From the human T2T-CHM13v2.0 reference genome, Homo sapiens: a stretch of DNA of 64,000 nt. The stretch lies in the NCBI RefSeq assembly GCF_009914755.1, contig NC_060944.1. The stretch is one strand, 5' to 3'. Positions 900 to 54,789 of the stretch are shown one piece after another; the stretch's first letter is position 1; every line of letters starts with the position of its first letter. The translations under genes and the position numbers were made by a program. The notes under the pieces were generated by a model. The model did no database searches, had not been told where the DNA came from, and saw only the letters and a list, made by a program, of their open reading frames with translations.

Positions 900-1330
900 C
901 CTTGTGATGGTATCCATGCCACCTTCTCACTTCTTTGTAGTTATTGCTGAAAAGCCACCTTGTCAGTGTGGCTTTCTCTGGCCACGGTTTTTAAACTTAT
1001 GGGAGCTTCCTCCAGTTTAGCACTGACTAATCCCTTTCCCAGCTTTATTTTTCAACCAAAGCCTTTATCACAACCCAACATTCTAAATATTTCAGTTCAT
1101 GATTTATTCATTGTCTGTCTCTTCCATATTAGACTGGAAGTTTCATGAGGGCAGCCACTTAGTCTTATACGCCATTGCCTTTCCCATACCTACAACAGTA
1201 GGGGTGTGTAAATCACATTCTGTGAACCAAACAATGTGGTTCTCATCAGATCTCCTCCAGCCAGCCGGTCTGCCTGGGAGCTGGAGGTACAACAGTGTAG
1301 GTTCCTGATAAAAATGTTCAACAATGAATG
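900..1330 (+). mobile_element. L2 LINE 3' end, interrupted by an insert at 1200-1287
   Basis: ttgtctgtctcttccatattagactggaagtttcatgagggcag...cctacaacagt...aatgaatg resembles the L2 3' terminus. Confidence 0.65.
1201..1286 (+). repeat. 86-bp local duplicate of 2931-3016
   Basis: 80/86 identical by direct comparison; flanked by tacaacagt at 1191-1199 and 1288-1296. Confidence 0.92.
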
Positions 1331-2930: not shown

Positions 2931-3016
2931 GGGGGGTGTAAATCACATTCCATGAACCAAACAATGTGGTTCTCATCAGATCTTCTCCAGCCAGCCACTC
3001 TGCCTGGGAGCTGGAG
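2931..3016 (+). repeat. Probable donor copy of the 1201-1286 duplicate
   Basis: gggggtgtaaatcacattc...tgcctgggagctggag, 93% identical to 1201-1286. Confidence 0.92.
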
Positions 3017-30100: not shown

Positions 30101-30760
30101 AATGGGATAACATCAAGTTAAAAAGCTTCTGCACAGCAAAGGAAATCATCAACAAAGTGAAAAGGCAACCCACAGAATGGAAGAAAATATTTGCAAACTA
30201 CCCATCTGACGAGGGATTAATAACCAGAATACATAAATAGCTCAAACAACTCTGTTGGAAAAAATCCAACGACCTGATTTAAAAATGAGTAAAAGGTCTG
30301 AATAGAGATTTCTCAAAAGAAGTCATACAAAGGATAAACAGGTATATGAAAAGGTGCTCAATATCCTTGATCATCAGAGAAATGAAAATTAAAACCACAA
30401 TGAGATATCATCTCACCCCAGTAAAAATGGCTTTTATCCAAAAGACAGGCAATAACAAACGCTGGCAAGGATGCAGAGGAGAGGGAACCCTCACACACAG
30501 TTGGTGGGAATGTAAATTAGTACAACCACTATGGAGAACAGTATGGAGGTTCCTCAAAAAACTAAAAATAGAACTACCACATGATTCTGCAATTCCACTG
30601 CTGGGTTTATACCCAAAAGAAAAGAAATCAGTATATTGAAGAGATACATATCTGCACTCTCATGTTTATTGCAACACTATTCACAATAGCTAAGCTTTGG
30701 AAGCAACCCAAGTGTCCATCAGCAGATGAATGGATAAAGAAAATTGTGGTACACAATGGA
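27130..30760 (+). pseudogene. Disrupted L1 ORF2p (endonuclease/reverse transcriptase)
   Basis: Fragments [65 protein letters not shown] in different frames. Confidence 0.92.
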
Positions 30761-31250
30761 ATACTATTCATCCATAAAAAAATGAAATCCTGTCAATTGC
30801 AACAACATAGATGGAACTAGATGTCATTATGTTAAGTGAAATAAGCCAGGTATAGAAAGACAGACTTAGCATGTTTTCACTTATTTGTGGGAGATAAAAA
30901 AGTTCAAGGAATTGAACTAATGAGATAGGGAATAGAAATGGTTACCACAGACTGGGAAGGGTGGGAGGTAGTTAATGAGTCAAAAAATATAGTTAGAATG
31001 AGTAAAATCTAGTATTTGATAGCACAGCAGGGGGACTACAGTTAATAATAATTTATTGTACACTTTAAAAGAGTGTAGTGGGATTATTTGTAACATACAG
31101 AAACAATAAATGCTTGAGGTTATGAATACCCCATTTACCCTGATGTGATTGTCATGCATTCTATGCCTGTATCAAAATATCTCATGCACTCCATAAGTAT
31201 ATACACCTACTATGTACCCACAAAAGTTAAAAATTAAAAAAAAAAAGAGA

Positions 31251-31985
31251 ATGCAACTCAGGAGTCAAGTGACCTGTGTTTTAGTTCTAGCTCTTTAATT
31301 ATTACATGTGTGATCACTGAAAACATTATTTACTCTCTCTGAGCTTTCATGTTCTTATCCATAAAATGGGAACAATAGGAGCTGCTGTCTGCAGGCAGGT
31401 AGTCGCCTTGCCCGTATCTCCGTGGCTCACCTTGGAAGTGCCCTGCTGATCAGAGGACATTCCCTATACCTGCTAATAGCTTCTTACTTCAAGCACCAAT
31501 GTCTCCCTCCTTGAAGGCTTTCTCTGACTGTAAGAGGCAGCTCAACCTGCACGTGGGCAAGTTGGCAGTGCTGGGGGTGATACCCCCAGGAGTGATCTGC
31601 AAATGATAAGAGGAGCTGGTAGATAAACGTCCCAGCCTCCTCACCACCCCCACACCCCCAGGGAATGATTCTATGTTCCACTCAGTCTCCCAGAAGGTCT
31701 TCCGTTGGAGTGAGTTCCAGACATCCCCAGGGGTAACTAGCTTGTTACACACCCTCTATTGGCTTTCCTCCCATCCTGAGTCAATTTCCCAATCCTTCAC
31801 TATGTTCCTGCCCTACATTCCCAAATAAAGAGCTTCTTTTCAAATCCTTCAAGTTTCTCCTTTGGGGAGAACCCAAACAAAGATGCTCTCAGGATTGTGG
31901 TGAGAATTCAATGAAACGATGCATGTAAATAGTTGGTGCCATATCTGGTGTGTAGCAGATACCGTAATAACCATAAGTTTTATTA
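31251..31985 (+). mobile_element. MIR split by an LTR
   Basis: ctctctgagctttcatgttcttatccataaaatggg before, caggattgtggtgagaattcaatgaaacgatgcatgtaaa after the LTR. Confidence 0.75.
31386..31885 (+). mobile_element. ERVL solo LTR (LTR16-like)
   Basis: 3' end cccaaataaag...caaatcctt...ttggggagaacccaaacaaaga is typical of the LTR16 family. Confidence 0.7.
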
Positions 31986-32183
31986 CCTACGATGATTATT
32001 ATGTCAATATATGAATTTTGACTGTAATGGGGAAGCTGTAATAAAGAGTCTGACTCTAGAAGTGAGACAGGGACACATGGGTGAGGAAGATCAGGTCCAG
32101 ATAAAATGGAAAGATTCTGTAGGAAAGCATATGAGGGTCCCCAAAAATCCTAAGGATACTGCTCAAGACATGCCTCCACTTCC

Positions 32184-32632
32184 TGGAATCAACAACACAA
32201 ATGCCCATCAATCAACGAGTGGATAAAGAAACTGTGATTACATATATATATATGATGCAATGCTACTGAGCCATAAAAAGGAATGAATGAATAGCATTCA
32301 CAGCAACCTGGATAGAATTGGAGACTATTATTCTAAGTGAAGTAACTCAGGAATGGGAAACCAGACATCTTATCTTCTCACTCATAAGTGGGAGCTAAGC
32401 TATGATGATGCAAAGACATAAGAATGACACAGTGGACTTTGGGGACTCAGGTGGAAAGGGTGGGAAGGGGGTGAGGGATAAAAGAATACAAATTGAGTTC
32501 AGTGTATACTGTTCAGGAGATGGGTGCACCAAAATCTCACAAATCACCACTCAAGAACTTACTCATTTAACCAAATATCACCTGTTCCCCCAAAACCTAA
32601 GGAAATAAAACATTTAAAAACAAAGATAAAAG
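32184..32632 (+). mobile_element. 5'-truncated L1PB (L1PB1-like) 3' end
   Basis: cataagaatgacacagtggactttgggg...gggtgcaccaaaatctcacaaatcaccac; decayed TSD agacat..ctcca.ttcc. Confidence 0.9.
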
Positions 32633-32945
32633 AGACATTTCTCCATTTCCAGAATATTCCTTGCACATGACTTTGTTGAGGGGACAGCAGTCTGGTGAAG
32701 TTGCCAGGCCTATTGATTCCAAATCCATGAAACTGGTGATTATTTAGTGAACAGCCTTTGGCCAAGAGGAAGGAGACATGTGACTGGCATCCAAATCACA
32801 GCACTTATTTCGTGCTCCTGGGGATGTCGTTTTTTCTTGGTTTCTACAGAGATGAGCATTAGGATTTTAAGGATGAGTAAAGGGGTCTAAAGAAGTGTCA
32901 TGGAAAAGGGAAACCAAGGAAAGGAGAAGGGAAGAAAAACAGCAA

Positions 32946-33080
32946 AAAAGATCTGAATAGAGATTTCTCAAAAGAACTCCTACAAGTGACAAGGTAAGTA
33001 GTTGCTGCCTTGCCCATATCTCCATGGCTCACCTTGGAAGTGCCCTGCTGTTCAGAGGACCTTCCCTATGCCTGCTAATA
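32946..33080 (+). repeat. Chimeric local duplicate of 30291-30330 (L1) and 31405-31478 (LTR16)
   Basis: 37/40 and 69/74 identities by direct comparison. Confidence 0.88.
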
Positions 33081-33108
33081 CTTTAGGCTCATTAAGGGAG
33101 AAAATGTT

Positions 33109-33542
<434 letters not shown>

Positions 33543-33639
33543 CTAGTTAAATTGTGACTGGATTCTTGAATATATTTTAATTCTGCACAATTATTTTGGC
33601 CTTGGTTTTGAAGGCCAAATCTGAAGTTAACCTAATTAT

Positions 33640-34052
33640 CTAATAAAATGCATACATTAAAAAAGAGTCAGACTCCGTTGTTTGATGTTTATGGACAGGT
33701 TTTAGGCCTCATTCATCCTTCCTCCCTGTCTGTTCCACATCTGGGGAAACTGTTAAGAAATCCCGGACAATCCTTCCTTTGGTGCCGGTGGGAAGTTTAA
33801 ACCAGGCATCACGGGAACCCTAATGTGGGCCCACCCCTTAACCACCATCAAAGCCCCAAGTCAGTGTCCTTTCCCTGCTCTGTCAAGAAATTTTGGATGT
33901 GCTTGAAAGTCTGCTCTGCTCTCTCCAGAAAGCCTTATTATGTGAGTCACAAAGCTTGTACGCACCCTCTTTGTCTCTGTGTGGTGTCATGAGTCTTGAC
34001 ATCTGAACCACATTTTGGGTCAAGTCTATCCTGTTTCTGTAGAGTCGTCACA
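33640..34052 (+). mobile_element. Probable ERVL-class solo LTR (MER73/MER74-like)
   Basis: ~410 bp block ending in ca with LTR-like ggaaccctaa...cccacccctaaccacc...tgtgtggtgtcat motifs; family uncertain. Confidence 0.45.
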
Positions 34053-47474: not shown

Positions 47475-47760
47475 CAGCCATTGGCAAACTCTGGCTTGTG
47501 GGCTAGCCACTTGTTTTTGTAAATAAAGCTTCATTAAAACACTTATGTGCATTCATTTATGCATTGTCTGGCTTATGGGCTAGCCACTTGTTTTTGTAAA
47601 TAAAGCTTTATTAGAACAGTTATGTGCATTCATTTATGCATCGTCTATAGTTGCTTTAATGCTGCAAGAGCAGAGTTGAGTGGTAGTGGCAGAGACTACA
47701 GCCTGCAGAGCCTAAAATATTTACTATCTGGCCCTTTTCAGACAACGTTTGTTGGCCCGT
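47475..47760. mobile_element. MER58A with internal 77-bp tandem duplication
   Basis: ttggcaaact...ttgtttttgtaaataaagc (x2)...cctaaaatatttactatctggccc. Confidence 0.88.
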
Positions 47761-54608: not shown

Positions 54609-54789
54609 TAAAACTTAGCCTTAACCAAAGCAACAAGAGCTATGAAAACATGCATGTTCATTTCTTTAAATGTGTATTAGAAAACAAACTAAAATTAGCA
54701 CACGAACCCATGTTTTCATAGCTCTTGTTGCTTAAGGCTAAGTTTTTTTAAAAGGTTTGTTTCTAATGCACATTTAAAGAAATGAACAT
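54609..54789. repeat. Interleaved double inverted repeat A-B-spacer-A'-B'
   Basis: 54610-54652 is the reverse complement of 54709-54746; 54654-54689 is the reverse complement of 54755-54789. Confidence 0.93.

What the first reader, a model, noticed from the sequence alone, without database searches (positions are those of the whole stretch)
32946..33080. Two-donor chimeric insert built from the neighbouring L1 and LTR16
Seen: 32946-32985 matches 30291-30330 in the local L1 (37/40). 33007-33080 matches 31405-31478 at the start of the LTR16-like element (69/74, two differences being CpG to CpA). The donors are ~1.07 kb apart, in the same order and strand, 1.6-2.6 kb upstream. Both donors carry caggta next to the join (30339-30344 and 31396-31401) and the insert has aaggta at its junction. 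The L1 piece shares aatagagatttctc with the local copy, where I recall aatagacatttctc in the consensus, which points to the local element as template. Inference: either serial template switching at caggta, or reverse-templated repair from a spliced local RNA (donor AAACAG|GTATAT, acceptor CTGCAGGCAG|). The ~20-nt junction fits neither model exactly.
Basis: partly seen in the sequence, partly recalled or inferred. Interest (0 to 1): 0.75.

Follow-up and report, generated by a model that had tools for sequence, protein, structure and literature searches.

The report
Two-donor DNA repair patch in pseudogene
A 125-base patch made of two pieces of neighbouring DNA sits at the old stop codon of a dead gene copy; it is likely the scar of an ancient chromosome-break repair, a rare but already described kind of local duplication.

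Summary
32946-33080 consists of a local L1 stretch (30291-30337) and a local LTR stretch (31394-31478), collinear, 1,056 nt skipped, no filler. The LTR piece has no other source in the genome. The L1 piece shares three rare variants with the local copy; a two-variant motif occurs in 2 of 408 genomic matches, donor and insert. The parent gene and three other copies show the empty site, with 3-6 nt and 4-5 nt microhomology at the ends, no poly(A) and no target duplication. Insert-donor divergence is 14 of 132 sites (about 25-40 My), probably younger than the pseudogene. This is a chimeric repair-mediated duplication (Pace et al. 2009: 5 of 824 proximal cases had two nearby donors); the locus is not in their table. 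The middle junction does not fit a switch at caggta. Splicing needs a 3-nt loss and a poor acceptor (about 6%). New member of a known kind; low interest.

The parts
32952..33076 (+). Net inserted sequence (125 nt), between the host's last Lys/Arg codons and the remainder of its stop-codon word
   Evidence: Absent from the parent gene and three other copies, where the flanks are contiguous
32946..32992 (+). Insert part 1, copy of local L1 30291-30337 (first 6 nt are the left microhomology, AAAAGA)
   Evidence: 41 of 47 identical; three shared non-majority states at 32962, 32978, 32989
32993..33080 (+). Insert part 2, copy of local LTR 31394-31478 (last 4 nt AATA are the right microhomology; both donor and parent continue with G)
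   Evidence: 77 of 85 identical plus a 3-nt gap; sole genomic source
30291..30344 (+). Donor 1, inside an old L1 (ORF2 C-terminal region; family name recalled); copied part ends at 30337, CAGGTA at 30339-30344
31390..31479 (+). Donor 2, 5' end of an LTR16-like solo LTR (name recalled, no repeat library available); copied part 31394-31479
   Evidence: one 73% relative on C23 aligns from 31389
30338..31393 (+). Skipped segment, 1,056 nt (L1 3' end, poly(A), MIR-like piece)
   Evidence: No trace of it near the insert; its ends do not pair better than random (duplex -9.1 kcal/mol, 42% of random pairs as low)
32057..33658 (+). Host: processed pseudogene MRPS33P4, with 5' UTR, intronless CDS, 3' UTR and poly(A) signal; much longer than the annotated 32681-32932
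   Evidence: Aligns to parent exons 1, 2, 3 and 3' UTR on C7
32040..32056 (+). Left target-site duplication of the pseudogene
   Evidence: 15 of 17 match to 33659-33675
33659..33675 (+). Right target-site duplication of the pseudogene
32185..32632 (+). Old L1 3' end inserted at the pseudogene's start codon (approximate ends; about 20-nt diverged target duplication)
33108..33400 (+). Old Alu inserted in the pseudogene's 3' UTR, 27 nt right of the insert (approximate ends)
   Evidence: Best other Alu hits 82% identical, 40 of 7,276 candidates scored; target duplication

Best explanation
The insert is a two-piece copy of nearby DNA lying at the stop codon of pseudogene MRPS33P4, and it is likely a germline double-strand-break repair patch made when one broken end primed on short microhomologies and hopped once along the same neighbouring strand. 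Shown: both donors are local, on one side, same strand and in order; the host is continuous around the insert with 0-3 nt lost; microhomology at both outer junctions; no poly(A), no target duplication. Inferred: after a break, the right end paired by AATAG with the + strand 1.6 kb upstream (resected overhang of the left end, or the sister chromatid), copied about 85 nt leftwards through the LTR, re-primed 1,056 nt further on in the L1 (1-nt overlap, or the CAGG(Y)A overlap with a 3-nt slip), copied about 45 nt and annealed to the left end at AAAAGA. The polymerase is not identifiable. About 25-40 My old, neutral since (inferred). The wider class (DNA-templated repair patch, this model plus the two-ended rival) gets about 0.83.
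For: Empty site in parent and three copies; outer microhomologies (AAAAGA at 0.11% and AATAG at 0.15% of positions within 5 kb); local-copy variants; unique LTR source; size 135 nt, distances 1.5 and 2.6 kb and donor spacing 1,056 nt all inside the ranges of Pace et al. (mean 162 bp; <5 kb; 289-3,432 bp). Same side, same strand and collinear order are required by a one-strand hop and are only about 1-in-8 to 1-in-16 for two independent invasions (my estimate). Both proximal two-donor rows that I saw in their Table S1 (2 of 5) also have both donors on one side. A second, single-donor local doublet lies in the same window, so the process is common.
Against: The middle junction fits best with only a 1-nt overlap, weak for re-priming. 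The left microhomology is 6 nt only if the host read like copy L033; with the parent's reading it is 3 nt with 3 nt lost. Pol-theta insertions are generally under 25 bp and come from the flanks (PMC12426944 passages), so kb-scale reach is atypical for that enzyme. 7 of 16 nt right of the junction differ from the parent, unexplained (my count; no local template). Sequence alone cannot separate ssDNA from an unspliced + strand RNA as template.
Confidence: 0.55

Rival explanations
1. Two-ended SDSA as drawn by Pace et al.: the left end invaded the L1 by AAAAGA, the right end invaded the LTR by AATAG, and the two new strands were joined in the middle with little or no overlap.
For: Strongest microhomologies are at the outer junctions and the weakest in the middle; this is the published model for chimeric acceptors.
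Against: Does not by itself predict same side, same strand and collinear order.
Confidence: 0.28
2. One 1.19-kb copy (30291-31479) was inserted and later lost 1,056 nt internally, or the template was a since-lost deletion allele.
For: Explains collinearity for free; a 1-nt overlap is typical of simple deletions; both parts are equally diverged (6/47 vs 8/85, Fisher P 0.57).
Against: Needs a second event; the longest of 824 proximal duplications was 619 bp, although that pipeline is biased against repeat-containing inserts; no residue of the skipped segment.
Confidence: 0.09
3. The break was patched by reverse transcription of a spliced + strand RNA (L1 donor site at 30341/30342 joined to the AG at 31394), primed at AATAG.
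For: The locus lies in a + strand lncRNA intron (hub annotation); the L1 site CAG/GTATAT matches 7 of 9 consensus positions (top 4.5% of 3,345 GTs) and lies 4 nt from the junction; the LTR side starts exactly after a CAG; spliced RNA can template repair in human cells (PMC12065846 passages).
Against: The insert lacks the last 3 exon bases before the junction, outside the 2-bp margin used for intron-loss scars; the acceptor has 8 of 17 pyrimidines and 2 upstream AGs; a CAGG microhomology switch predicts the same junction without RNA; no annotated exon here; described RNA-templated repair uses the transcript of the broken site, not an ectopic one.
Confidence: 0.06
4. The patch was picked up during retrotransposition of the MRPS33 mRNA (L1 reverse transcriptase switching to a local RNA and back).
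For: The insert is inside a retrocopy; under the most conservative comparison the age gap is only borderline (Fisher P 0.051).
Against: Insert-donor divergence 10.6% against 18.4% for pseudogene versus parent 3' UTR (binomial P 0.010); against twice the pseudogene's own branch (0.14-0.17 by triangulation) P 4e-5. An Alu with at best 82% relatives and an old L1 also sit inside the pseudogene.
Confidence: 0.02

Closest known systems
Chimeric repair-mediated duplication (Pace, Sen, Batzer, Feschotte 2009, PMC2671141)
   Same: Short insert (50-619 bp), donors under 5 kb away, two donors 289-3,432 bp apart in 5 of 20 chimeric cases, microhomology, no poly(A).
   Different: Host is a processed pseudogene, not a transposable element, and one donor is a repeat, so their pipeline could not find it; not among the 25 chr20 rows of Table S1.
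Doublets (Thomas et al. 2004, known here only as cited by Pace et al.)
   Same: Short local non-tandem duplications attributed to break repair.
   Different: Single donor, near-identical pairs.
Pol-theta templated insertions / MMBIR-type serial template switching (PMC12426944 passages)
   Same: Minimal-pairing priming, reiterated priming and release, patchwork of segments.
   Different: Usually under 25 bp and copied from the immediate flanks; here 45 and 85 nt from 1.6-2.7 kb away.
Class 2 templated sequence insertion polymorphisms (PMC5110952 passages)
   Same: No target duplication, no poly(A), microhomology; break-repair patch.
   Different: Donors are distant, alleles polymorphic, RNA intermediate proposed; here local and old.
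RNA-templated break repair / whole-intron deletion (PMC12065846 passages)
   Same: Would leave a collinear junction at GT-AG sites.
   Different: Precise junction and a template homologous to the broken site; neither holds here.

Membership tests
Repair-mediated duplication (Pace 2009) | Insertion of at least 50 bp interrupting a recognisable older sequence | tested here: met
   125 nt net in MRPS33P4; parent and three copies contiguous. Host is a pseudogene, not a transposon as in their search design.
Repair-mediated duplication (Pace 2009) | Donor within 5 kb, identifiable as the unique source | tested here: met
   LTR part unique; L1 part assigned by three rare shared states, not by best identity
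Repair-mediated duplication (Pace 2009) | Microhomology, small deletion or filler at breakpoints; no poly(A/T) tail | tested here: met
   Left 3-6 nt, right 4-5 nt, 0-3 nt lost, no tail
Repair-mediated duplication (Pace 2009) | Empty orthologous site in an outgroup species | not testable with these tools
   No primate genomes held; paralogues used as a proxy
Chimeric (two-donor) repair-mediated duplication | Two donors, second within about 3.5 kb of the first | tested here: met
   1,056 nt apart
Chimeric (two-donor) repair-mediated duplication | Short complementarity where the two copied pieces meet | tested here: inconclusive
   1 nt in the best-scoring model; 4-6 nt if a 3-nt loss is allowed
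Chimeric (two-donor) repair-mediated duplication | Formed in one event, not trimmed later | not testable with these tools
   Needs orthologues
L1-mediated insertion (TPRT; class 1 TSIP) | Target-site duplication of 5 bp or more and poly(A) tail | tested here: not met
   Neither at the insert; the host pseudogene has both
Class 2 TSIP | Donor at a distant genomic site | tested here: not met
   Both donors under 2.7 kb away
Class 2 TSIP | Polymorphic among humans | not testable with these tools
   One genome only; 10.6% divergence makes it unlikely
Pol-theta templated insertion | Small (generally under 25 bp), copied from the break's flanks | tested here: not met
   45 and 85 nt from kb away
Pol-theta templated insertion | Dependence on POLQ | not testable with these tools
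   Fossil event
Spliced-RNA-templated repair | Precise exon-exon junction at GT-AG | tested here: not met
   3 nt short for the first AG; 8 mismatches and a gap for the second
Spliced-RNA-templated repair | Functional acceptor with polypyrimidine tract | tested here: not met
   8 of 17 pyrimidines against 14 and 16 in two real acceptors; crude count on today's sequence
Spliced-RNA-templated repair | The spliced transcript exists | not testable with these tools
   No RNA data
Segmental duplication | Longer than 1 kb at over 90% identity | tested here: not met
   135 nt, 89%

The most novel reading that the evidence does not exclude
The patch is a germline fossil of break repair templated by a spliced local lncRNA: an ectopic, in-cis cDNA patch with no poly(A) or target duplication whose middle junction is an exon-exon join between a cryptic L1 donor and an LTR acceptor, blurred by a later 3-nt loss. 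If so, part of the published chimeric repair duplications would be RNA-derived and identifiable by GT-AG at their skipped segments.
Probability: 0.06. Interest if true: 0.7.

Novelty: new member of a known kind. Interest (0 to 1): 0.22.

Why it matters
Little on its own: a neutral scar in a pseudogene in a lncRNA intron. It is a clean, previously unlisted example of the rare both-donors-nearby subtype (5 of 824 in Pace et al.), and it shows that processed pseudogenes can serve as hosts with a known empty site, outside the transposon-only search space. A genome-wide set of such patches would make two questions testable: whether the donors are collinear and one-sided (one-strand hop or two-ended invasion) and whether skipped segments are enriched for GT-AG (RNA template).

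Tried and rejected
Better donors elsewhere: none for the LTR half; seven L1 copies are closer by raw identity but none shares all three rare states. Switch at caggta or splice to 31399: worst of four models. Filler or third template at the middle junction or right flank: best window matches have 4 mismatches in 16-17 nt. Hairpin bringing the two donors together: not better than random. Retrotransposition signature at the insert: absent. Insert as part of the parent mRNA: parent and three copies lack it. Polarity of the 3-nt gap in the LTR part: one 73% relative has extra bases at that spot like the insert, too weak to rely on. Source for an extra about 50 nt in the pseudogene 5' UTR: none in the parent stretch, the window or the genome. 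Literature: six searches; 'MRPS33P4' is in 3 papers, obesity and hypertension genetics by title, seen as listings only; no description of this insert was found in those searches. Earlier scan findings were not available. No primate orthologues or RNA data could be examined.

Full report
1. Observation. The two matches are as reported: 37/40 and 69/74, same strand and order. A genome-wide search with the 135 nt returned 19 matches: itself, the local LTR donor (93%, E 8e-23, the only hit for that half) and 17 L1 copies. The whole 511-nt LTR has only one other relative detected, at 73%.

The L1 half needed a better test than identity, because the local copy ranks 8th of 17 by score and 7 of the other 16 have fewer mismatches. 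Against 30 other copies, donor and insert share three states that are absent or single among them: G at 30307 (0 of 30), T at 30323 (1 of 30), A at 30334 (1 of 30). The 28-nt motif with the first two states occurs twice in the genome, in donor and insert; the degenerate motif occurs 408 times and the first state alone 3 times. Of the 17 L1 hits only the local one has all three; three have two. The donor has three further private changes that the insert lacks, and the insert three of its own, as expected if the copy was made part-way through the L1's decay.

2. Anatomy. The insert is not free-standing. It interrupts processed pseudogene MRPS33P4 (name from the hub annotation), which extends well beyond its annotated 32681-32932: exon 1 matches from 32066, the joined exons 2 and 3 run from about 32633 to 32951, the 3' UTR to about 33657, and a 15-of-17 target duplication frames it at 32040-32056 and 33659-33675. 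An old L1 3' end sits at its start codon and an old Alu in its 3' UTR, each with its own target duplication. The intron-containing parent on C7 and three other copies (C15, two on C4) have no such insert; their last codons run straight into the stop codon. They stand in for the empty site.

Left junction: the host ends in AAAAGA (32946-32951); 28 of 30 L1 copies have A at the last position, where the donor now has G. If the host read like copy L033 the overlap is 6 nt and nothing was lost; if it read like the parent the overlap is 3 nt and 3 nt were lost. Right junction: donor and parent both read AATAG; the window reads AATAC (33077-33081), so 4 nt seen, 5 inferred. There is no poly(A) and no target duplication. 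Middle junction: the L1 match runs to 32992 (30337) and the LTR match starts at 32993 (31394), with a 3-nt gap a few bases on; there is no filler.

3. Age. Insert and donors differ at 14 of 132 sites (10.6%, K2P 0.115; 95% interval 5.9-17.2%), equal in both halves (P 0.57): 26 My at 2.2e-9 or 38 My at 1.5e-9 per site per year, range 14-65 My (the first rate is, the second is my assumption). The pseudogene differs from the parent 3' UTR at 42 of 228 sites (K2P 0.21), and its own branch is 0.14-0.17 by triangulation with three copies (my arithmetic). Equal age is rejected at P 0.010 (binomial) or borderline at P 0.051 (Fisher) on the most conservative footing, and at P 4e-5 using the branch estimate. 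So the insert most likely arrived after the pseudogene.

4. Mechanism. Shown: local donors, intact host, microhomology at both ends, no retrotransposition marks. Inferred: a germline break at the old stop codon was repaired by microhomology-primed copying. Both templates are the + strand upstream of the break, the strand left exposed when the left end is resected, and a primer from the right end would meet them in the observed order (LTR first, then L1). I therefore favour one end hopping once along that strand (0.55) over two ends invading separately (0.28). A trimmed 1.19-kb copy (0.09) needs a second event and would be twice the longest of 824 published cases. The spliced-RNA reading (0.06) has one real point: a 7-of-9 donor site 4 nt from the junction and a CAG at the other side. 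Against it, the junction is 3 nt short, the acceptor tract is ordinary, and a CAGG switch gives the same join. These probabilities are judgements, not computed values.

5. Known kinds. Pace et al. 2009 (PMC2671141; read parts 1-5 of 8 of the text, further passages, and searched rows of Table S1) describe 824 human repair-mediated duplications within 5 kb, mean 162 bp, with microhomology and no poly(A); 20 acceptors were chimeric and 5 had both donors within 289-3,432 bp. This locus fits every feature that I could test except a clear overlap at the middle junction. It is not among the 25 chr20 rows of their table (16 proximal, 9 distant; none lists two donors), as expected for a pipeline limited to transposon hosts and single-copy donors. 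For Pol-theta insertions (PMC12426944), TSIPs (PMC5110952) and RNA-templated repair (PMC12065846) I read passages only; each works similarly in part and fails a defining feature.

6. Background. A self-comparison of the window found a second local doublet, 86 nt at 93% and 1.65 kb apart, with only two copies in the genome, so short local copies are common here. The two-donor structure is the uncommon part.

7. Verdict. Real, well explained, new member of a known kind. Interest 0.22. Left open: orthologues and RNA evidence.

Noticed in passing
window 1201-1286 and 2931-3016: A second short local duplication: 86 nt, 93% identical, same strand, 1,645 nt apart, only these two copies in the genome; a likely single-donor repair duplication, direction not determined.
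   Followed up: partly
window 54610-54689 and 54711-54789: Two adjacent stretches (about 41 and 36 nt) are each repeated in inverted orientation just downstream, in the order A B A' B' and not as a simple palindrome, nearly identical; looks like a young fold-back template-switch event.
   Followed up: partly
window 32991-32999: The insert's middle junction now reads AAG/GTAAGT, a 9-of-9 match to the splice-donor consensus, one of 2 among 3,345 GTs on the + strand of the window; neither donor has it. Use in a transcript is untested.
   Followed up: no
window 32102-32150: About 50 nt between the exon 1 and exon 2 matches of MRPS33P4 have no counterpart in the fetched parent stretch, in copy L033, in the window or in the genome search; possibly another old insertion or a lost alternative 5' exon.
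   Followed up: partly
window 33081-33096: 7 of 16 nt right of the insert differ from the parent, against about 18% in the 3' UTR; no local template found. Possibly error-prone fill-in.
   Followed up: partly
L033 (C4 copy of the same gene): An Alu is inserted at the same stop-codon region with a target duplication; the A-rich end of this CDS was hit in two independent retrocopies.
   Followed up: no
window 32057-33675: The annotated span of MRPS33P4 (32681-32932) covers only part of the retrocopy, which includes both UTRs and three later insertions.
   Followed up: yes
window 47490-47646: Tandem duplication of about 78 nt at 94% identity.
   Followed up: no
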